Below are positions 14,032 through 35,561 of a stretch of DNA of 64,000 nt, one piece after another (positions within the stretch are counted from its first letter, which is position 1; every line of letters begins with the position of its first letter). Source of the stretch: Escherichia coli (GTDB taxonomy: Bacteria; Pseudomonadota; Gammaproteobacteria; Enterobacterales; Enterobacteriaceae); NCBI RefSeq assembly GCF_044324785.1, contig NZ_CP172127.1; one strand, 5' to 3'. The position numbers and the translations under genes were made by a program. A model generated the notes under the pieces. It was given only the letters and a program-made list of their open reading frames with translations, ran no database searches and was not told the DNA's origin.

Positions 14032-14250
14032 ATGGAAAAAGAGCAGCTGATTGAAATAGCCAATACGATAATGCCGTTTGGCAAATACAAAGGGCGTCGC
14101 TTAATCGACCTGCCGGAGGAGTATCTTCTGTGGTTTGCCCGCAAAGATGAGTTCCCGGCAGGGAAGCTCGGTGAGCTAATGCAAATCACGCTGCTGATTA
14201 AAACTGAGGGGCTGACGCAACTGGTCCAGCCCCTGAAGCGTCCTCTTTAA
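14032..14250 (+). CDS. ypeB: small conserved protein (DUF3820 type)
   Basis: 72 aa; start 2 nt after ligA stop; stop overlaps yfeH stop on opposite strand (TTAA). Confidence 0.8.
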   Translation: MEKEQLIEIANTIMPFGKYKGRRLIDLPEEYLLWFARKDEFPAGKLGELMQITLLIKTEGLTQLVQPLKRPL

Positions 14251-15245
14251 GCTTTATTGGCGCGGCTTTCCTGCTGCGCCTGTAACTGTTCGGTCTGGTG
14301 TTTGTATCGACGCGCCAGCACCGCACAGACCATCAATTGGATCTGATGGAAAATCATCAGAGGCAGCACCATCATACCGATCACCGATGTGGGGAAAAGA
14401 ATGTTTGCCATCGGGATGCCATTTGCCAGACTCTTTTTCGAACCACAAAAGACGATAGTAATTTCATCTGCCTTATTGAAGCCCAGTCGGCGTGCCATAA
14501 AGACGTTAACTACGATCACGATAGCCAGAAGAACGCAGCTGACCACCACGATAAACAGCAATGATCCCCAGCCAACTTTATGCCAGATACCATTAACAAC
14601 GGCTTCGCTAAACGCTGTATAAACCACCAACAGAATGGACGTCTGGTCAGTTTTCGCAATCCATTTTTTATTGCGCGACACCCAGTCACCAATCCACGGC
14701 CGGGAAAGATGCCCCAACACAAACGGCAGCAGCAGTTGCAGCATAATTTTACCGACCTGCTCAAGGCTGCCTCCCGCACCGTGAACATTCATCACCAGAC
14801 CAACCAGCAATGGTGAAAGGAAAATCCCCAGCAGGCTGGATGCTGACGCAGAACAAACCGCTGCCGCGACGTTACCGCCCGCCATTGAAGTAAAGGCGAT
14901 TGCAGACTGCACGGTAGCGGGGAGAATGCACAAGTAGAGAAAACCGGAGTAGAGCATCGGGTCGACATTTACCGGTTTCCACCAGGCAAACAGCACGCCC
15001 AGAATCGGAAACAATACGAAGGTGCTGCACATTACCCACAAATGCAGTCGCCAGTGCCCACCGCCAGCAATAATCGCCTCACGCGACAACTTCGCGCCGT
15101 GCATAAAAAACAGCAGGGCAATCGCTGCGGTGGTCAGATTTTCAAAGAAGGGGACGAAATCGCCTCTGGCCGGAAAGAAAGAGGCCAGCAACACCACCGT
15201 GATCAGGGTTAAGGTGAAAGGATCGAGGATACGAAAAAGTTTCAT
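14247..15245 (-). CDS. yfeH: bile acid:sodium symporter (BASS) family transporter
   Basis: 332 aa polytopic membrane protein. Confidence 0.85.
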   Translation of the reverse strand: MKLFRILDPFTLTLITVVLLASFFPARGDFVPFFENLTTAAIALLFFMHGAKLSREAIIAGGGHWRLHLWVMCSTFVLFPILGVLFAWWKPVNVDPMLYSGFLYLCILPATVQSAIAFTSMAGGNVAAAVCSASASSLLGIFLSPLLVGLVMNVHGAGGSLEQVGKIMLQLLLPFVLGHLSRPWIGDWVSRNKKWIAKTDQTSILLVVYTAFSEAVVNGIWHKVGWGSLLFIVVVSCVLLAIVIVVNVFMARRLGFNKADEITIVFCGSKKSLANGIPMANILFPTSVIGMMVLPLMIFHQIQLMVCAVLARRYKHQTEQLQAQQESRANKA

Positions 15246-15334
15246 AAAGACTCCAGATGATCGATGGTTCTATTGTGCTTCTTCCAGTTTGAGAAATAAA
15301 ATTGATTTATTGCATCCATTCATGAAGAAAACAG

Positions 15335-16261
15335 ATGAATTATTCTTTAAAACAATTAAAGGTTTTCGTCACAGTAGCGCAGGAGAAAAGTTTTAGTCGT
15401 GCAGGAGAGCGTATCGGCCTGAGCCAGTCGGCAGTGAGTCACAGTGTGAAGGAGCTGGAAAATCATACTGGTGTTCGCCTGCTGGACAGAACCACGCGTG
15501 AAGTGGTGCTTACAGATGCAGGGCAGCAGTTGGCTTTGCGTCTTGAGCGACTGCTGGATGAACTGAACAGCACGTTGCGCGATACCGGGCGTATGGGGCA
15601 ACAACTGAGCGGAAAAGTTCGGGTCGCTGCCAGCCAGACCATTTCCGCGCATCTTATTCCGCAATGCATTGCTGAAAGCCATCGCCGCTATCCAGATATT
15701 CAGTTTGTCCTGCACGATCGTCCGCAGCAGTGGGTGATGGAAAGTATTCGCCAGGGAGATGTCGATTTTGGCATCGTCATCGATCCAGGCCCAGTGAGCG
15801 ATCTGCAATGTGAAGCGATTCTTTCCGAGCCTTTCTTTCTGCTTTGCCATCGCGATAGCGCTTTGGCCGTGGAAGATTATGTACCCTGGCAGGCATTACA
15901 GGGAGCGAAATTGGTGTTGCAGGATTACGCGTCAGGCAGCCGACCGCTGATTGACGCAGCTCTGGCGCGCAACGGTATTCAGGCGAATATTGTGCAGGAG
16001 ATTGGTCATCCGGCGACGCTGTTCCCGATGGTAGCCGCAGGCATCGGCATTAGTATTCTTCCCGCACTGGCGCTGCCGTTACCTGAAGGTAGCCCGCTGG
16101 TGGTAAAGCGCATTACGCCGGTGGTGGAACGCCAGTTGATGCTGGTGCGCAGGAAGAACCGTTCACTTTCCACCGCCGCTGAAGCGTTATGGGACGTGGT
16201 ACGAGGCCAGGGCCGTGCGCTAATGGCTGGGCGGGAAGGGGATCCGCTGTATCAGATATAG
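15335..16261 (+). CDS. yfeR: LysR-family transcriptional regulator
   Basis: 308 aa; N-terminal HTH ([35 protein letters not shown]) and LysR substrate-binding domain. Confidence 0.88.
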
Positions 16262-16593
16262 ATATCGATCTGAGTCGTTTTTTCAACAGGATTTGGAAGG
16301 GATGCATTCAAAGACAAACTCTGCTCTTTCTCCTGCGCCTTTTCTGCCTGCTGTCTTTGCAACTGCGCCAGTTGTGTTTCCAGTAGGGTGATTTGCTGCT
16401 GAATCAATTCGGCCTGTTTTTGCTTGTCTTCAGCACTGCCGCTAGTGTCTGCAATCTCTTTAATTTGTTGAGTGAGTTTGATGATTTGCTGACTTATCCG
16501 CGCAATTTGTGAAGCAACATCGCTACCTTCTGATGCCCTGTTACTACTCTGTGTTTGTATGGAAGGAATTGAAGTTGAAGAGATAGTGGCCAT
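16252..16593 (-). CDS. small Gln-rich coiled-coil protein, FlxA-like in character
   Basis: 113 aa, Ser/Thr-rich N-terminus then Q/K/E coiled-coil ([27 protein letters not shown]), C-terminal ...TQIDIYI; 10-bp convergent overlap with yfeR stop; family assignment from memory of FlxA-like proteins, not searched. Confidence 0.5.
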
Positions 16594-16680
16594 TGTTCAG
16601 TCCTCGTCACTGTACGAGGTAATATCGGCAGAAGAACAAGGAACTTGAGAAGAAAAATCAATCTTACAAACCGCATATAG

Positions 16681-16708
16681 CAAAAAAGCGCCTTTAGGGC
16701 GCTTTTTT
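16681..16708 (-). terminator. rho-independent terminator ending the Val-Val-Val-Lys tRNA operon
   Basis: agcgcc-ttta-ggcgct hairpin followed (minus strand) by T-run, immediately 3' of tRNA-Lys. Confidence 0.75.
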
Positions 16709-16712
16709 ACAT

Positions 16713-16788
16713 TGGTGGGTCGTGCAGGATTCGAACCTGCGACCAATTGATTAAAAGTCAACTGCTCTACCAACTGAGCTAACGACCC
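16713..16788 (-). tRNA. lysV: tRNA-Lys (anticodon UUU)
   Basis: Reverse complement GGGTCGTTAGCTCAGTTGGTAGAGCAGTTGACTTTTAATCAATTGGTCGCAGGTTCGAATCCTGCACGACCCACCA, 76 nt, encoded CCA. Confidence 0.95.
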
Positions 16789-16792
16789 GAAG

Positions 16793-16868
16793 TGGTGGGT
16801 GATGACGGGATCGAACCGCCGACCCCCTCCTTGTAAGGGAGGTGCTCTCCCAGCTGAGCTAATCACCC
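16793..16868 (-). tRNA. valY: tRNA-Val (anticodon UAC)
   Basis: rc GGGTGATTAGCTCAGCTGGGAGAGCACCTCCCTTACAAGGAGGGGGTCGGCGGTTCGATCCCGTCATCACCCACCA; one of three identical copies. Confidence 0.95.
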
Positions 16869-16914
16869 ACTTCGGTACTTCACATTTTTACAAGAAATTT
16901 AGCTGGCGAGAAAG

Positions 16915-16990
16915 TGGTGGGTGATGACGGGATCGAACCGCCGACCCCCTCCTTGTAAGGGAGGTGCTCTCCCAGCTGAGCTAATCACCC
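16915..16990 (-). tRNA. valX: tRNA-Val (anticodon UAC)
   Basis: Identical 76-nt sequence to copy at 16793-16868. Confidence 0.95.
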
Positions 16991-17034
16991 ACTTCTCAAT
17001 TTCTTGCTACACGGCGGAGACTACATAAAGTAGT

Positions 17035-17110
17035 TGGTGGGTGATGACGGGATCGAACCGCCGACCCCCTCCTTGTAAGGGAGGTGCTCTCCCAGCTGAG
17101 CTAATCACCC
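17035..17110 (-). tRNA. valU: tRNA-Val (anticodon UAC)
   Basis: Identical 76-nt sequence; first gene of the tRNA operon, divergent from gltX. Confidence 0.95.
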
Positions 17111-17368
17111 CCGCTGTGTGGAGTCGCATTATAGGGAGAGTTCAAAATGAGTCAACGCATTTTCTAAAGAAATTGTTCGTTCGTCGTAAATTTAAGCAAG
17201 ATGATCGCAAAACAGACCGTGTTGCGCAATTTGTCAACGAAAACAATAATGCGTAAGGTTGCAACCCGAACTACATTGAGGAATCAGGCGGGAGTGATAG
17301 AATATCGCCCACTCAATTTTTCCAGGATTTGCCGGTTGTCGGCATCTTTCTAAACGTAAGGCCATTTC

Positions 17369-18784
17369 ATGAAAATCAAAACTCGCTTCGCGCCAAGCCC
17401 AACAGGCTATCTGCACGTTGGCGGCGCGCGTACTGCTCTTTACTCCTGGCTTTTTGCACGTAACCACGGCGGTGAGTTCGTGCTGCGTATTGAAGACACC
17501 GATCTTGAGCGTTCCACGCCGGAAGCTATCGAAGCCATTATGGATGGCATGAACTGGCTGAGCCTGGAGTGGGATGAAGGTCCGTACTACCAGACCAAAC
17601 GTTTTGATCGCTACAACGCGGTGATCGATCAGATGCTGGAAGAGGGCACAGCTTATAAATGCTATTGTTCTAAAGAGCGCCTGGAAGCGCTGCGCGAAGA
17701 GCAAATGGCGAAAGGTGAGAAGCCGCGTTATGACGGTCGCTGCCGCCACAGCCATGAGCATCATGCTGATGATGAACCGTGCGTTGTACGTTTTGCTAAC
17801 CCGCAGGAAGGTTCTGTTGTTTTTGACGATCAGATCCGTGGCCCGATTGAGTTCAGCAACCAGGAGCTGGATGATCTGATCATTCGCCGTACCGATGGTT
17901 CCCCAACCTATAACTTCTGTGTGGTTGTTGATGACTGGGATATGGAAATCACCCATGTTATCCGTGGCGAAGACCATATCAACAACACGCCGCGCCAGAT
18001 CAACATTCTTAAAGCCCTGAAAGCGCCGGTACCGGTTTACGCGCACGTTTCTATGATCAACGGCGATGACGGTAAAAAACTGTCCAAACGTCACGGGGCG
18101 GTCAGCGTAATGCAGTATCGTGATGACGGTTATCTGCCAGAAGCACTGCTGAACTATCTGGTGCGTCTGGGCTGGTCCCACGGCGATCAGGAAATCTTCA
18201 CTCGTGAAGAGATGATCAAATACTTCACCCTGAATGCCGTCAGCAAATCTGCCAGTGCGTTCAACACCGACAAGCTGCTGTGGCTGAACCATCACTACAT
18301 TAACGCGCTGCCGCCGGAGTATGTTGCTACTCACTTACAGTGGCACATTGAGCAGGAAAATATCGATACCCGTAACGGCCCGCAGCTGGCTGATCTGGTG
18401 AAACTGCTGGGCGAACGCTGCAAGACGCTGAAAGAGATGGCACAGAGCTGCCGTTATTTCTACGAAGATTTTGCTGAGTTCGATGCCGACGCCGCGAAAA
18501 AACATCTGCGTCCAGTAGCGCGTCAGCCGCTGGAAGTAGTTCGTGACAAACTGGCCGCGATTACTGACTGGACAGCTGAAAACGTTCATCACGCTATTCA
18601 GGCGACGGCGGATGAGCTGGAAGTGGGTATGGGTAAAGTTGGTATGCCGCTGCGTGTCGCCGTTACCGGTGCGGGGCAGTCTCCGGCGCTGGATGTTACC
18701 GTTCACGCAATCGGTAAGACCCGCAGTATCGAGCGTATCAACAAAGCGCTGGCTTTTATTGCTGAACGCGAAAATCAGCAGTAA
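17369..18784 (+). CDS. gltX: glutamyl-tRNA synthetase
   Basis: 471 aa; class I HIGH motif (HVGGART) and KMSKS-like KLSKR. Confidence 0.97.
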
Positions 18785-32205: not shown

Positions 32206-34701
32206 ATGTTAACGATTCAATTTCTCTGTCCTTTGCCTAACGGTATTCATGCTCGTCCGGCGTGGGAACTTAAAGAACAGTGCAGCCAGTGGCAAAGCGA
32301 AATCACTTTTATTAACCATCGCCAGAACGCAAAGGCCGATGCGAAAAGTTCGCTGGCGCTGATTGGCACCGGCACTTTATTTAATGACAGTTGCAGCCTG
32401 AACATCAGCGGCAGCGATGAAGAACAGGCGCGGCGCGTGCTGGAAGAGTACATCCAGGTGCGCTTTATCGACAGCGACAGCATTCAGCCGACGCAGGCAG
32501 AACTGACGGCGCATCCGCTACCGCGTTCATTAAGCCGTCTGAATCCTGATTTACTGTACGGCAATGTGCTGGCAAGCGGTGTCGGCGTGGGTACGCTGAC
32601 CCTGTTACAGAGCGACAGCCTCGACAGTTATCGGGCAATCCCGGCCAGTGCGCAAGACTCCACCCGGCTGGAGCACAGCCTGGCAACGCTTGCCGAGCAA
32701 CTGAACCAGCAACTGCGCGAGCGTGACGGCGAAAGCAAAACTATCCTCAGCGCCCATTTGTCGCTGATCCAGGATGATGAATTTGCAGGCAATATCCGTC
32801 ACCTGATGGCAGAACAGCATCAGGGGCTGGGGGCGGCGATCATCAGCAATATGGAGCAGGTTTGTGCCAAACTTTCTGCTTCTGCCAGCGATTATCTGCG
32901 CGAGCGGGTCAGCGACATTCGCGATATCAGCGAACAGTTACTGCATATCACCTGGCCGGAACTAAAACCGCGCAATAATCTGGTGCTTGAAAAACCGACT
33001 ATTCTGGTGGCTGAAGATTTAACCCCAAGCCAGTTTTTGAGCCTCGATTTACAAAATCTTGCGGGCATGATTCTGGAGAAAACCGGGCGCACCTCGCATA
33101 CCCTGATTCTGGCCCGCGCCTCGGCGATCCCGGTTCTTAGCGGCTTGCCGCTGGATGCGATTGCCCGTTATGCCGGGCAACCGGCGGTGCTTGACGCCCA
33201 GTGCGGCGTGCTGGCGATTAACCCGAATGACGCGGTGAGCGGTTATTATCAGGTCGCGCAGACGCTGGCGGATAAACGCCAAAAACAACAGGCGCAGGCC
33301 GCCGCGCAGCTGGCCTATTCCCGTGATAACAAGCGTATTGATATTGCGGCGAATATCGGCACCGCTCTGGAAGCGCCAGGCGCGTTTGCTAACGGCGCGG
33401 AAGGTGTTGGGCTGTTCCGTACCGAAATGCTCTATATGGATCGCGACAGCGCGCCGGACGAGCAGGAGCAATTTGAAGCCTACCAGCAGGTGCTACTGGC
33501 GGCGGGCGACAAGCCGATTATCTTCCGCACGATGGACATCGGCGGCGATAAAAGCATTCCTTATCTGAATATTCCCCAGGAAGAGAACCCGTTCCTCGGC
33601 TATCGCGCGGTACGTATTTACCCGGAATTTGCTGGCCTGTTCCGCACTCAACTGCGGGCCATTTTGCGCGCCGCCAGTTTCGGCAACGCCCAGTTGATGA
33701 TCCCAATGGTTCACAGCCTCGATCAGATCTTATGGGTGAAGGGCGAGATCCAAAAAGCGATCGTTGAGCTTAAGCGCGATGGCCTGCGTCATGCAGAGAT
33801 GATTACGCTGGGTATCATGGTGGAAGTGCCGTCGGTGTGCTACATCATCGACCACTTCTGCGATGAGGTCGATTTCTTCAGTATCGGTTCTAACGATATG
33901 ACCCAGTATCTGTATGCGGTCGATCGTAATAACCCGCGCGTATCGCCGCTGTATAACCCGATTACGCCATCGTTCCTGCGCATGTTGCAGCAAATAGTTA
34001 CCACTGCGCATCAGCGGGGCAAATGGGTAGGCATTTGCGGTGAACTGGGCGGTGAAAGCCGTTATCTGCCGCTACTGCTTGGGCTGGGCCTGGATGAGCT
34101 GAGTATGAGTAGCCCGCGCATTCCGGCGGTGAAAAGCCAGCTTCGTCAACTGGATAGCGAGGCGTGTCGGGAACTGGCACGTCAGGCGTGTGAATGTCGC
34201 AGCGCGCAGGAAATTGAAGCGTTACTCACCGCCTTTACGCCGGAAGAAGACGTTCGCCCGCTGCTGGCGCTGGAGAATATCTTCGTTGATCAGGCCTTTA
34301 GTAATAAAGAGCAGGCGATCCAGTTCCTGTGTGGCAACCTCGGCGTTAACGGGCGCACGGAACATCCGTTTGAGCTGGAAGAGGATGTCTGGCAGCGGGA
34401 AGAGATTGTCACCACCGGCGTTGGTTTTGGCGTGGCGATCCCGCACACCAAATCGCAGTGGATCCGTCATTCCAGTATCAGCATTGCCCGGCTGGCGAAA
34501 CCGGTTGACTGGCAGTCAGAAATGGGCGAAGTCGAACTGGTGATCATGCTGACGCTGGGTGCTAACGAAGGGATGAATCATGTGAAAGTCTTCTCGCAGC
34601 TGGCGCGTAAACTGGTGAATAAAAACTTCCGCCAGTCGTTGTTTGCCGCGCAAGATGCACAAAGTATCCTGACGCTGCTGGAAACAGAATTAACCTTCTG
34701 A
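32206..34701 (+). CDS. fryA: PTS multiphosphoryl transfer protein (HPr-like - enzyme I-like - EIIA-like fusion)
   Basis: 831 aa; N-terminal HPr-like (GIHARPA), central EI-like PEP-utilising domain, C-terminal EIIA(Fru)-like; synonym ypdD. Confidence 0.9.
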   Translation: MLTIQFLCPLPNGIHARPAWELKEQCSQWQSEITFINHRQNAKADAKSSLALIGTGTLFNDSCSLNISGSDEEQARRVLEEYIQVRFIDSDSIQPTQAELTAHPLPRSLSRLNPDLLYGNVLASGVGVGTLTLLQSDSLDSYRAIPASAQDSTRLEHSLATLAEQLNQQLRERDGESKTILSAHLSLIQDDEFAGNIRHLMAEQHQGLGAAIISNMEQVCAKLSASASDYLRERVSDIRDISEQLLHITWPELKPRNNLVLEKPTILVAEDLTPSQFLSLDLQNLAGMILEKTGRTSHTLILARASAIPVLSGLPLDAIARYAGQPAVLDAQCGVLAINPNDAVSGYYQVAQTLADKRQKQQAQAAAQLAYSRDNKRIDIAANIGTALEAPGAFANGAEGVGLFRTEMLYMDRDSAPDEQEQFEAYQQVLLAAGDKPIIFRTMDIGGDKSIPYLNIPQEENPFLGYRAVRIYPEFAGLFRTQLRAILRAASFGNAQLMIPMVHSLDQILWVKGEIQKAIVELKRDGLRHAEMITLGIMVEVPSVCYIIDHFCDEVDFFSIGSNDMTQYLYAVDRNNPRVSPLYNPITPSFLRMLQQIVTTAHQRGKWVGICGELGGESRYLPLLLGLGLDELSMSSPRIPAVKSQLRQLDSEACRELARQACECRSAQEIEALLTAFTPEEDVRPLLALENIFVDQAFSNKEQAIQFLCGNLGVNGRTEHPFELEEDVWQREEIVTTGVGFGVAIPHTKSQWIRHSSISIARLAKPVDWQSEMGEVELVIMLTLGANEGMNHVKVFSQLARKLVNKNFRQSLFAAQDAQSILTLLETELTF

Positions 34702-34703
34702 CG

Positions 34704-35561
34704 TTAGCCCTGAAAACGGGCGCTGTACTCTCCCGGCGTCAGACCAAACTGACGCCGGAAAACGCGACAAAAATAGTCGCTATCCGGAAAACCGCAACGC
34801 TGCGCCACTTCATGAATCGACAGATGATATTTCTGCAAAATCATCCTCGCCTTCGCCATTCGCACCCAACGCACATATTCGATAAAACGCATTGTTCCAT
34901 GCTGCGCAAACAGTTTTGACAGATGATTGGGCGTGATATTAAAAAACAGCGCCACGCTCTCACGGGTGAGCGGCTGGGCATAATTATCCTGAACCCAGTT
35001 ACAAATGCTGTGATAAAGAAAATCGCCGCGCGGCTGCGAATTGCCCGGCGGCATATTCACCACGTTACGGCAAAGATGCAGCAAACTTAACACCAGCGGC
35101 TGAATGATATTCTGCTCCAGCGGCGAACGGCTAAGATGGGTGAGTGCAGTAAGCATTGCTTCACCTTCGCCGCGTTGCAGGCTGGGAAGTTGGATCTGGC
35201 GAGCAGGATGCAACAACGACGTGGTGCGGCTATCGTAAAACGATAACCCAAGCCAGGTCGGTGCGAACACCAGGCTTAACAGCATCACCGGTTTGTTGTT
35301 GATCGGTAAATTAGCCGCGCGCGCTGGAATAAACAGCATTTCTCCTTCAACCATACGTTGCTGCTTTGCTTCCAGCAGATTGCCGTATTCGCCGCGCAGC
35401 ACGATATCCAGACGGGGAAAATCAATACATAAACTGCCCACCGGTAACGAGGCAGGCTGGCTGGCAAACCAGACGCGCCCCAGTAGTTGCGGGTTAAGCA
35501 CCAGGCCGCTGAACAGATCGGCGAAAAATTGTTGATCGGCGGGCAAGCCTGGTGCTTTCAT
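34704..35561 (-). CDS. ypdC: AraC-family transcriptional regulator
   Basis: 285 aa with C-terminal AraC-type HTH. Confidence 0.85.
   Translation of the reverse strand: MKAPGLPADQQFFADLFSGLVLNPQLLGRVWFASQPASLPVGSLCIDFPRLDIVLRGEYGNLLEAKQQRMVEGEMLFIPARAANLPINNKPVMLLSLVFAPTWLGLSFYDSRTTSLLHPARQIQLPSLQRGEGEAMLTALTHLSRSPLEQNIIQPLVLSLLHLCRNVVNMPPGNSQPRGDFLYHSICNWVQDNYAQPLTRESVALFFNITPNHLSKLFAQHGTMRFIEYVRWVRMAKARMILQKYHLSIHEVAQRCGFPDSDYFCRVFRRQFGLTPGEYSARFQG

What the first reader, a model, noticed from the sequence alone, without database searches (positions are those of the whole stretch)
14247..14250. Convergent genes sharing overlapping stop codons (ypeB/yfeH)
The ypeB stop TAA (14248-14250) and the yfeH stop (rc of tta at 14247-14249) overlap within the tetranucleotide TTAA, leaving no room for terminators on either strand; the ligA-ypeB and yfeH transcripts must overlap at their 3' ends. 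The same tail-to-tail compaction occurs at yfeR/FlxA-like ORF (10-bp overlap) and cysM/yfeK (2-bp gap), implying possible antisense interference between convergent transcripts.
Basis: seen in the sequence. Interest (0 to 1): 0.2.

Follow-up and report, generated by a model that had tools for sequence, protein, structure and literature searches.

The report
Interlocked stop codons of ypeB/yfeH
Two E. coli genes that face each other really do share the four bases TTAA as their stop codons, but this is an old, common and already catalogued arrangement. Their transcription end signals are not missing; they sit inside the neighbouring gene's coding sequence.

Summary
ypeB (14032-14250, +) and yfeH (14247-15245, -) overlap by TTAA. 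The yfeR/FlxA-like 10-nt overlap and the cysM/yfeK 2-nt gap are also real.

The window is E. coli chromosome, and K-12 and essentially all complete E. coli genomes have the same overlap. So do 74 of 80 other Enterobacteriaceae species, which use all four allowed tetranucleotides (TTAA, TTAG, CTAA, CTAG).

The inference that the transcripts overlap is supported by published data:
- K-12 3' ends map to window 14200 (yfeH) and 14332 (ligA-ypeB), giving a 133-nt overlap.
- ExcludonFinder lists yfeH-ypeB among 165 convergent excludons.

The claim that there is no room for terminators is not supported. A GC-rich hairpin plus UUUU lies inside ypeB codons 57-68, and the yfeH mRNA ends exactly there. 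Its stem keeps pairing through G·U and compensatory changes on the yfeH-sense strand. The two four-fold codons in the stem (Gly GGG, Pro CCC) are invariant in 81 species, while the 13 others vary.

The ligA-ypeB end lies behind less conserved hairpins inside yfeH. Antisense interference remains untested.

This class of overlap was described in 2007. The finding is ordinary and of low interest.

The parts
12015..14030 (+). ligA CDS. Its TGA stop is 1 nt before the ypeB start codon.
   Evidence: ORF; RefSeq annotation of homologous loci; junction sequence.
14032..14250 (+). ypeB CDS (72 aa, DUF3820/PF12843), stop TAA at 14248-14250.
14247..15245 (-). yfeH CDS (332 aa, SBF-like transporter), stop TAA, which is the reverse complement of 14247-14249.
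14247..14250 (.). TTAA, the shared tetranucleotide holding both stop codons.
   Evidence: Conserved as [CT]TA[AG] in 74 of 80 Enterobacteriaceae species.
14200..14234 (-). Terminator-like element of yfeH embedded in ypeB codons 57-68. Hairpin A is at 14234->14207: an 8-bp outer stem AGGGGCUG/CAGCCCCU plus an inner stem. A CAG spacer follows, then UUUU at 14203->14200. The mapped yfeH mRNA 3' end corresponds to 14200.
   Evidence: Fold. K-12 3' end 2527991(+) in TRS data, with coordinates transferred. Pair conservation and compensatory changes. Frozen GGG, CCC and AAA codons.
14259..14280 (+). Hairpin B (GGCGCGGC-UUUCCU-GCUGCGCC), 8 nt after the ypeB stop and inside the yfeH 3' codons. It has no U tract in E. 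coli.
   Evidence: A hairpin of -10 kcal/mol or stronger lies in this zone in 70 of 81 species, followed by a run of 4 or more U in 20 of them.
14286..14328 (+). Hairpin C inside yfeH. The mapped ligA-ypeB mRNA 3' end corresponds to 14332, 4 nt after it, with no U tract.
   Evidence: Fold. K-12 3' end 2527859(-) in TRS data. Not conserved as a consensus structure.
14200..14332 (.). 133-nt segment present in both mRNAs as complementary 3' UTRs.
   Evidence: Derived from the two K-12 3' ends. The mapping is indel-free. ExcludonFinder lists the pair.
13440..13440 (-). Position corresponding to a Rho termination region on the yfeH strand, antisense to ligA and about 807 nt past the yfeH stop.
   Evidence: MG1655 2528751(+), Rho score 6.7, in Adams et al. 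2021 supplementary file 2. Gene coordinates. The transfer to the window is inferred from the equal ligA length.
16252..16261 (.). 10-nt overlap of yfeR (15335-16261, +, stop TAG) and the FlxA-like ORF (16252-16593, -, stop TGA).
4518..4525 (.). cysM stop (4518-4520), a 2-nt gap, then the yfeK stop (4523-4525, - strand).

Best explanation
ypeB and yfeH are an ancestral tail-to-tail gene pair of Enterobacteriaceae whose stop codons interlock in [CT]TA[AG]. Termination and 3'-end signals were not lost. They lie inside the partner gene.

The yfeH mRNA ends at an intrinsic-type terminator: GC-rich hairpin A, a 3-nt spacer and UUUU, encoded antisense within ypeB codons 57-68. The ligA-ypeB mRNA runs about 82 nt into yfeH and ends just behind hairpin C. 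That end has no U tract, so it is probably a processed, Rho- or collision-assisted end. This step is inferred.

The two mRNAs therefore carry about 133 nt of complementary 3' UTR. Transcripts that read through hairpin A are stopped by Rho inside antisense ligA. The overlap most likely persists for two reasons. A mutation of the shared TA would destroy both stops at once. The arrangement also costs little at the low expression of both genes. An evolved regulatory switch is the less likely reason.
For: The overlap is present in the window, in K-12 and in N3. It is present in 74 of 80 other species, with all four permitted tetranucleotides. The overlap was resolved in six species, grouped as three cases: a 5-nt duplication in L044; Atlantibacter-like L058-60 and L082; and L073.

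The K-12 yfeH 3' end at 2527991(+) is the last U of ...CAGCCCCUCGGUUUU. The ypeB 3' end is at 2527859(-), 83 nt after the stop (legend; strain and definition). The window differs from K-12 by only 5 substitutions and no indel across 14181-14351.

The hairpin A outer stem is paired in 647 of 648 cells on the yfeH-sense strand. One pair reads G-C 57, G·U 22, A-U 2. Another reads C-G 77, U-A 3, U·G 1. All but one of the single-sided changes give G·U on this strand, which would be A·C mismatches on the ypeB-sense strand; the one exception is an unpaired cell in L077.

Of the 15 conserved four-fold-degenerate codons of ypeB, only Gly60 GGG and Pro67 CCC are invariant (81 of 81), and both lie in the stem. 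Lys57 AAA, which forms the U tract, is 80 of 80, against Lys69 AAA 47 and AAG 30.

A Rho termination region lies on the yfeH strand about 807 nt downstream. ExcludonFinder detected overlapping transcription in at least 50% of 58 transcriptomes.
Against: The consensus terminator scan did not call hairpin A. The U tract is only 4 U and follows a 3-nt spacer. Rho-independence has not been shown.

Adams et al. Term-seq lists no 3' end at 25278xx-25280xx, so the ends are weak or depend on the method.

The 3'-end data are from K-12 in LB, not from this strain. That the rows come from the LB RNAtag-seq sheet is inferred from their position in a truncated file.

Hairpins B and C have no conserved consensus structure, so the mechanism of the ligA-ypeB end is open.

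The sequences are phylogenetically related, so the counts are not independent events.
Confidence: 0.75

Rival explanations
1. Regulatory excludon. The interlocked stops and the 133-nt complementary 3' UTRs are selected because transcription of ligA-ypeB and of yfeH repress each other, through RNAP collision and/or RNase III cleavage of the duplex.
For: yfeH-ypeB is in the MG1655 excludome. The arrangement has been conserved across the family. The two mRNAs share 133 nt.
Against: No expression anticorrelation or RNase III data were found. Both genes are weakly expressed in LB (Supplementary Data 4), so collisions would be rare. Conservation is explained more simply by the double cost of mutating the shared TA. 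Six of 80 species separated the stops while keeping hairpin A. Tight tail-to-tail packing is common here, in 4 of 12 pairs.
Confidence: 0.15
2. There are no terminators at this junction. Both polymerases read on until they are stopped only by Rho or by head-on collision, and the mapped ends are merely exonuclease stops.
For: The consensus scan found no canonical terminator at the junction. A Rho-dependent region lies downstream on the yfeH strand. The ypeB end has no U tract. Adams Term-seq shows no peaks there.
Against: The yfeH end falls precisely on the UUUU after hairpin A. Stem and U-tract codons are frozen at synonymous sites, with strand-specific G·U tolerance and compensatory changes. 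This shows selection on the RNA element, whatever its exact mode of action.
Confidence: 0.1
3. The conservation of hairpin A reflects protein and codon constraints, or a function in the ypeB-sense mRNA or in DNA, and not a yfeH terminator.
For: The stem encodes invariant residues E-G-L and Q-P-L of YpeB. Both strands fold about equally well (Am -20.1, Ap -20.4 kcal/mol).
Against: Amino-acid constraint does not fix third positions, yet GGG and CCC are 81 of 81 while 13 other four-fold codons vary with H3 of 0.39-1.69 bits. The 24 G·U cells would be A·C mismatches on the ypeB-sense strand. The only mapped RNA end at this element is on the yfeH strand.
Confidence: 0.05

Closest known systems
4-bp convergent stop-stop overlaps (CTAA/TTAA/CTAG/TTAG) described by Lillo & Krakauer 2007, Biol Direct 2:22 (PMC2174442)
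   Same: Exactly this geometry. That paper counts 58 convergent overlaps in E. coli. It states that rho-independent terminators of such genes must lie in the partner's coding sequence, and finds predicted ones for 23 of 116 genes.
   Different: Nothing in kind. This report adds per-locus detail: the family-wide conservation, mapped RNA ends, and frozen synonymous sites in ypeB.
Convergent excludons (ExcludonFinder, NAR 2025, PMC12288877)
   Same: yfeH-ypeB is listed by name among the 165 convergent excludons of MG1655, on the basis of overlapping RNA-seq coverage.
   Different: The defining functional consequence, mutually exclusive expression with RNase III processing, has not been shown for this pair.
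Overlapping bidirectional terminators between convergent genes (Ju et al. 2019, as described in bioRxiv 10.1101/2022.10.23.513370)
   Same: A convergent pair with stem-loops at the transcript ends and overlapping 3' ends.
   Different: Here there is no intergenic region and no single shared stem-loop. Each strand ends behind a different hairpin (A versus C), 133 nt apart. The Ju et al. data themselves could not be consulted.
Rho-dependent suppression of antisense and readthrough transcription (Adams et al. 2021, eLife, PMC7815308)
   Same: A Rho termination region sits antisense to ligA on the yfeH strand, at 2528751(+) with Rho score 6.7.
   Different: It lies about 760 nt beyond the mapped yfeH end, so it acts as a backstop and is not the primary end.

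Membership tests
4-nt convergent stop-stop overlap | Two genuine protein-coding genes on opposite strands, tail to tail. | tested here: met
   Pfam E=4e-29 and 3.9e-113. RefSeq annotation. Orthologues at 82-100% identity in 80 species.
4-nt convergent stop-stop overlap | Both stops lie within one [CT]TA[AG] tetranucleotide. | tested here: met
   TTAA at 14247-14250. All four variants are seen among orthologues.
Convergent excludon | The transcripts of the two neighbouring genes overlap. | tested here: met
   Published K-12 data only: 3' ends at 2527991(+) and 2527859(-), and the ExcludonFinder Table 1 entry. Not measured in this strain.
Convergent excludon | The overlap causes mutually exclusive expression, by transcriptional interference and/or RNase III processing. 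| not testable with these tools
   No functional data were found for this pair.
Intrinsic (Rho-independent) terminator: hairpin A for yfeH | A GC-rich stem-loop in the nascent RNA. | tested here: met
   An 8-bp outer stem with 6 G-C pairs plus an inner stem. Energy is -17.1 kcal/mol for the 47-nt 3' UTR. The outer stem is 99.8% paired in 81 species.
Intrinsic (Rho-independent) terminator: hairpin A for yfeH | A U-rich tract directly after the stem. | tested here: inconclusive
   There are only UUUU, preceded by a CAG/CGG spacer. The consensus scan did not report it. AAA at Lys57, which gives UUU, is invariant.
Intrinsic (Rho-independent) terminator: hairpin A for yfeH | The RNA 3' end falls in the U tract in vivo. 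| tested here: met
   The TRS dominant position 2527991 is the last U of GGUUUU in K-12.
Intrinsic (Rho-independent) terminator: hairpin A for yfeH | Termination without Rho, shown in vitro or by insensitivity to bicyclomycin. | not testable with these tools
   Only a downstream Rho region is documented.
Overlapping bidirectional terminator (Ju et al. 2019) | One shared stem-loop element between the genes that defines the 3' ends of both strands. | tested here: not met
   The ends lie behind different hairpins, 133 nt apart, and there is no intergenic DNA.

The most novel reading that the evidence does not exclude
The last 12 codons of ypeB double as a strand-specific terminator for the opposing gene yfeH. 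That terminator has frozen synonymous sites across all sampled Enterobacteriaceae. Under this reading, the interlocked stops, the terminator and the 133-nt duplex form a selected module that makes expression of the essential ligA operon and of the YfeH transporter mutually antagonistic.
Probability: 0.12. Interest if true: 0.4.

Novelty: already known. Interest (0 to 1): 0.18.

Why it matters
It matters little beyond annotation. The locus is a clean illustration of three points. A zero-length intergenic region does not mean an absence of terminators. Coding sequence can carry an antisense RNA signal strong enough to freeze synonymous codons for a whole bacterial family. Interlocked stop codons are evolutionarily sticky.

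It could serve as a test locus for excludon or collision models, because both 3' ends are mapped. However, the class, the transcript overlap and this very gene pair are already in the literature.

Tried and rejected
- The consensus promoter/terminator scan of 11500-17500 found no terminator at the junction. This is a limit of the tool, because hairpin A has a bulge and a spacer, and was superseded by folding and the published 3'-end data.
- Rfam at gathering threshold found only tRNAs in the window.
- Adams et al. 2021 Term-seq tables have no 3' end annotated to ypeB or yfeH, and none at coordinates 25278xx-25280xx.
- The TERMITe supplements gave no hit.
- The supplements of Dar & Sorek 2018, Choe et al. 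2022 and ExcludonFinder are not held.
- Ju et al. 2019 SEnd-seq is not held.
- RNAalifold on the + strand downstream of ypeB in 81 species gave no consensus structure. I therefore do not claim conserved function for hairpins B and C.
- An attempt to confirm which sheet of TRS Supplementary Data 3 holds the rows failed.
- I considered and rejected the idea that the overlap is an annotation artefact. Both C-termini are confirmed by orthologue alignment to the last residues.

Full report
**Identity of the window and check of the observation**

The sequence 14247-14250 reads TTAA. The mechanical ORF list gives 14032..14250 on the + strand (72 aa) and 14247..15245 on the - strand (332 aa). The stated stop codons and the 4-nt overlap are therefore exact.

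The DNA is E. coli chromosome. A 2-kb query around the site matches 5425 of 5426 complete E. coli genomes at 95-99.5% identity, always annotated ligA, ypeB, yfeH, yfeR. RefSeq annotates the same overlap in strain N3 (ypeB 15533..15751 and yfeH 15748..16746 of L001), in MG1655 (yfeH 2526946-2527944 +, ypeB 2527941-2528159 -) and in 118UI.

Both products are bona fide families: PF12843 at E=4e-29 for YpeB and PF13593 at E=3.9e-113 for YfeH.

- yfeR 15335..16261 and a FlxA-like ORF 16252..16593 overlap by 10 nt. The overlap is annotated as such in E. coli 042.
- cysM ends at 4520 and the yfeK stop begins at 4523.

These two layouts are strain-variable. The FlxA-like layout, without yfeN-xapABR, is in 1306 of 5426 genomes. 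The layout without yfeS is in 4038 of 5426 genomes. K-12 has neither.

**How unusual is it?**

It is not unusual. From the ORFs and the annotation of the collinear strain 118UI, I count 12 convergent CDS pairs in the window. Their gaps are -10, -4, 2, 2, 42, 49, 50, 55, about 64, about 76, 104 and about 141 nt.

The literature already defines the class. Lillo & Krakauer 2007 name CTAA, TTAA, CTAG and TTAG as the tetramers that end two genes on opposite strands. They count 58 convergent overlaps in E. coli. They point out that rho-independent terminators of such genes must lie in the partner's coding sequence, and find predicted ones for 23 of 116 such genes (PMC2174442).

**Evolutionary depth**

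I scanned one genome per species (GTDB representatives) with a YpeB alignment. This returned 80 loci from Escherichia, Citrobacter, Enterobacter, Kosakonia, Kluyvera, Klebsiella, Raoultella, Leclercia, Lelliottia, Pluralibacter, Atlantibacter, Trabulsiella and others.

In all 80, yfeH lies convergent to ypeB. In 74 the stops overlap by exactly 4 nt: TTAA 45, TTAG 14, CTAG 9, CTAA 6. Positions 1 and 4 toggle by transitions, while the shared TA is fixed.

The overlap was undone in six species, grouped as three cases:
- a 5-nt duplication, TTAACTTAAG, in Enterobacter vonholyi (L044);
- new stops in the Atlantibacter-like group (L058-60, L082);
- a new stop in Kluyvera georgiana (L073).

Codon indels occurred on both sides. 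YpeB is 70-72 aa, the YfeH tail is variable, and the hairpin-to-stop spacing is 7, 10 or 13 nt. None of this disturbed the tetranucleotide.

The simplest reading, which is inference, is inertia reinforced by selection. A hit in the shared TA extends both proteins at once.

**Are there really no terminators?**

Folding the + strand 14200-14340 gives -60.8 kcal/mol, z=-4.65, with three hairpins around TTAA:
- **Hairpin A (14207-14234)** lies inside ypeB. On the - strand it starts 13 nt after the yfeH stop and is followed by CAG-UUUU-AAU.
- **Hairpin B (14259-14280)** is GGCGCGGC-UUUCCU-GCUGCGCC. It lies inside yfeH, 8 nt after the ypeB stop.
- **Hairpin C (14286-14328)** also lies inside yfeH.

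The simple consensus scan missed all three. Hairpin A has a bulge and a spacer, and B and C lack U runs.

**Experimental 3' ends**

The TRS study (Nat Commun 2023, PMC10687069) used E. coli K-12 MG1655 in LB at exponential phase and defines a primary end as one within 100 nt of the stop. It lists two relevant ends (column legend):
- A primary yfeH end at 2527991(+), with adjusted p of 3e-4 to 4e-7 in three libraries. The surrounding sequence is ...CAGGGGCUGGACCAGUUGCGUCAGCCCCUCGGUUUUA.
- A primary ypeB end at 2527859(-), with adjusted p of 7e-15 to 3e-25. It lies behind the hairpin GUUCGGUCUGGCGUUUGUAUCGACGCGCCAGCACCGCACAG.

Its Supplementary Data 4 gives 3' UTRs of 48 and 83 nt.

The window and K-12 differ by five substitutions and no indel over 14181-14351, so window coordinate = 2542191 minus K-12 coordinate. 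The yfeH end is therefore window 14200, the last U after hairpin A. The ligA-ypeB end is 14332, 4 nt after hairpin C.

The two mRNAs share 14200-14332, which is 133 nt. This agrees with ExcludonFinder. That study lists yfeH-ypeB among the 165 convergent excludons found in at least 50% of 58 MG1655 transcriptomes (PMC12288877).

The overlap inference stands.

**Caveats on the experimental data**

- The Adams et al. 2021 Term-seq tables contain no end at this junction.
- That the TRS rows come from the LB RNAtag-seq sheet is inferred from their position in a truncated file.
- Adams et al. do report a Rho termination region at 2528751(+), antisense to ligA, with a Rho score of 6.7. This is 807 nt past the yfeH stop, at about window 13440. 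It suggests that readthrough beyond hairpin A is cleared by Rho.

**Is hairpin A a selected RNA element?**

I aligned the yfeH-sense strand of 81 sequences (A2) and counted the pairs of the hairpin. The 8-bp outer stem is paired in 647 of 648 cells:
- One pair reads G-C 57, G·U 22, A-U 2.
- Another reads C-G 77, U-A 3, U·G 1.
- A third reads G-C 79, G·U 1, other 1.

There are five cells with changes on both sides, and 0 of 500 shuffles reach that number. Only 34 of 500 shuffles reach the count of pairs with such changes, so the covariation signal is modest.

The 24 G·U cells would be A·C mismatches on the ypeB-sense strand. This points to the yfeH transcript as the functional strand.

The stronger evidence is at synonymous sites. 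Among the 15 conserved four-fold-degenerate codons of ypeB, 13 vary, with third-position entropy of 0.39-1.69 bits. Only Gly60 (GGG, 81 of 81) and Pro67 (CCC, 81 of 81) are invariant, and these are precisely the two such codons inside the stem. If two of 15 sites were invariant at random, both would fall in the stem with probability 1/105. Lys57 AAA, which supplies UUU, is 80 of 80, whereas Lys69 is AAA 47 and AAG 30.

The sequences are related, so the counts are not independent events. The other codons of the same gene serve as an internal control.

**The ligA-ypeB end is less clear**

RNAalifold finds no consensus structure downstream of ypeB. The Ala wobble position in hairpin C's 3' arm varies.

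A hairpin is nevertheless usually present after the ypeB stop:
- The 45 nt after the stop fold better on the + strand (mean -16.7 kcal/mol, z -2.07) than on the - strand (mean -12.9, z -1.24).
- A single hairpin of -10 kcal/mol or stronger lies within 50 nt in 70 of 81 species.
- In 20 of those, for example Enterobacter, it is followed by a run of 4 or more U.

In E. coli the mapped end has no U tract. It may be an exonuclease-trimmed Rho-dependent end, a weak intrinsic end or a collision end. I could not decide among these.

**Mechanism proposed**

Shown:
- interlocked stops;
- embedded hairpins;
- RNA ends behind hairpins A and C in K-12;
- overlapping transcription;
- evolutionary constraint on hairpin A and its U tract.

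Inferred:
- Hairpin A acts as an intrinsic-type terminator for yfeH.
- Rho acts as a backstop.
- The overlap persists mainly through the double cost of mutating TA and the low cost of the arrangement at low expression.
- ligA-ypeB are co-transcribed and translationally coupled. The stop and start are 0-1 nt apart in all species, with ATG in 38 and GTG in 43.

Antisense interference, the excludon function, is possible but untested. Both genes have low read densities in LB.

**Comparison and verdict**

The locus is a member of the known class of 4-nt convergent overlaps and is already listed as a convergent excludon. It does not fit the single shared stem-loop bidirectional terminator of Ju et al., because each strand ends behind a different hairpin.

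The finding is already known in kind and, for this gene pair, by name. The only new detail is the family-wide freezing of ypeB codons by an antisense terminator.

Noticed in passing
An 831-aa ORF (fryA/ptsP-like, 32206..34701, +) and ypdC (34704..35561, -) are separated by 2 nt. Overall, 4 of 12 convergent CDS pairs in the window have gaps of 2 nt or less.
   Followed up: partly
window 14028-14034, and L003-L082: The ypeB start lies 0-1 nt after the ligA stop in all 81 sequences. It alternates between ATG (38) and GTG (43) across species. This suggests conserved translational coupling of ypeB to the essential ligase gene.
   Followed up: partly
window 16252-16700 and 4520-4525, compared with K-12 (L002): Relative to K-12, the window lacks yfeN-xapABR and carries instead a 113-aa FlxA-like ORF next to the tRNA-Lys/Val cluster, a layout found in 1306 of 5426 genomes. 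It also lacks yfeS between cysM and yfeK, a layout found in 4038 of 5426 genomes. Two of the three tight junctions are therefore products of strain-variable gene content.
   Followed up: partly
window 4526-4559: A perfect 9-bp inverted repeat, ATTGCGCAG...CTGCGCAAT, starts 6 nt after the cysM stop and lies inside the 3' end of yfeK. It has no U tract on either strand. It may be the analogue of the embedded hairpins at ypeB/yfeH.
   Followed up: no
window 16252-16285: At the yfeR/FlxA-like overlap, a weak AT-rich hairpin (UCAGAU...AUCUGA) spans the overlapped stops. On the + strand it is followed by GUCG and UUUUUU. This is a possible yfeR terminator inside the FlxA-like ORF.
   Followed up: no
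L044 around 2713-2722 (Enterobacter vonholyi): The overlap has been resolved by what looks like a 5-nt tandem duplication, TTAAC-TTAAG. This gives separate stops with a 1-nt gap, and it is a natural control construct for testing the role of the overlap.
   Followed up: no
about window 13440, - strand (MG1655 2528751 +): A published Rho termination region antisense to ligA (Rho score 6.7) implies detectable antisense transcription across ypeB and the 3' third of ligA in K-12.
   Followed up: partly
window 16716-17110: The tRNA cluster here gives four Rfam tRNA matches. The annotated strains differ in arrangement: N3 has Lys-Val-Val-Val and 118UI has Val-Lys-Val-Lys. The cluster is therefore rearranged between E. 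coli lineages.
   Followed up: no
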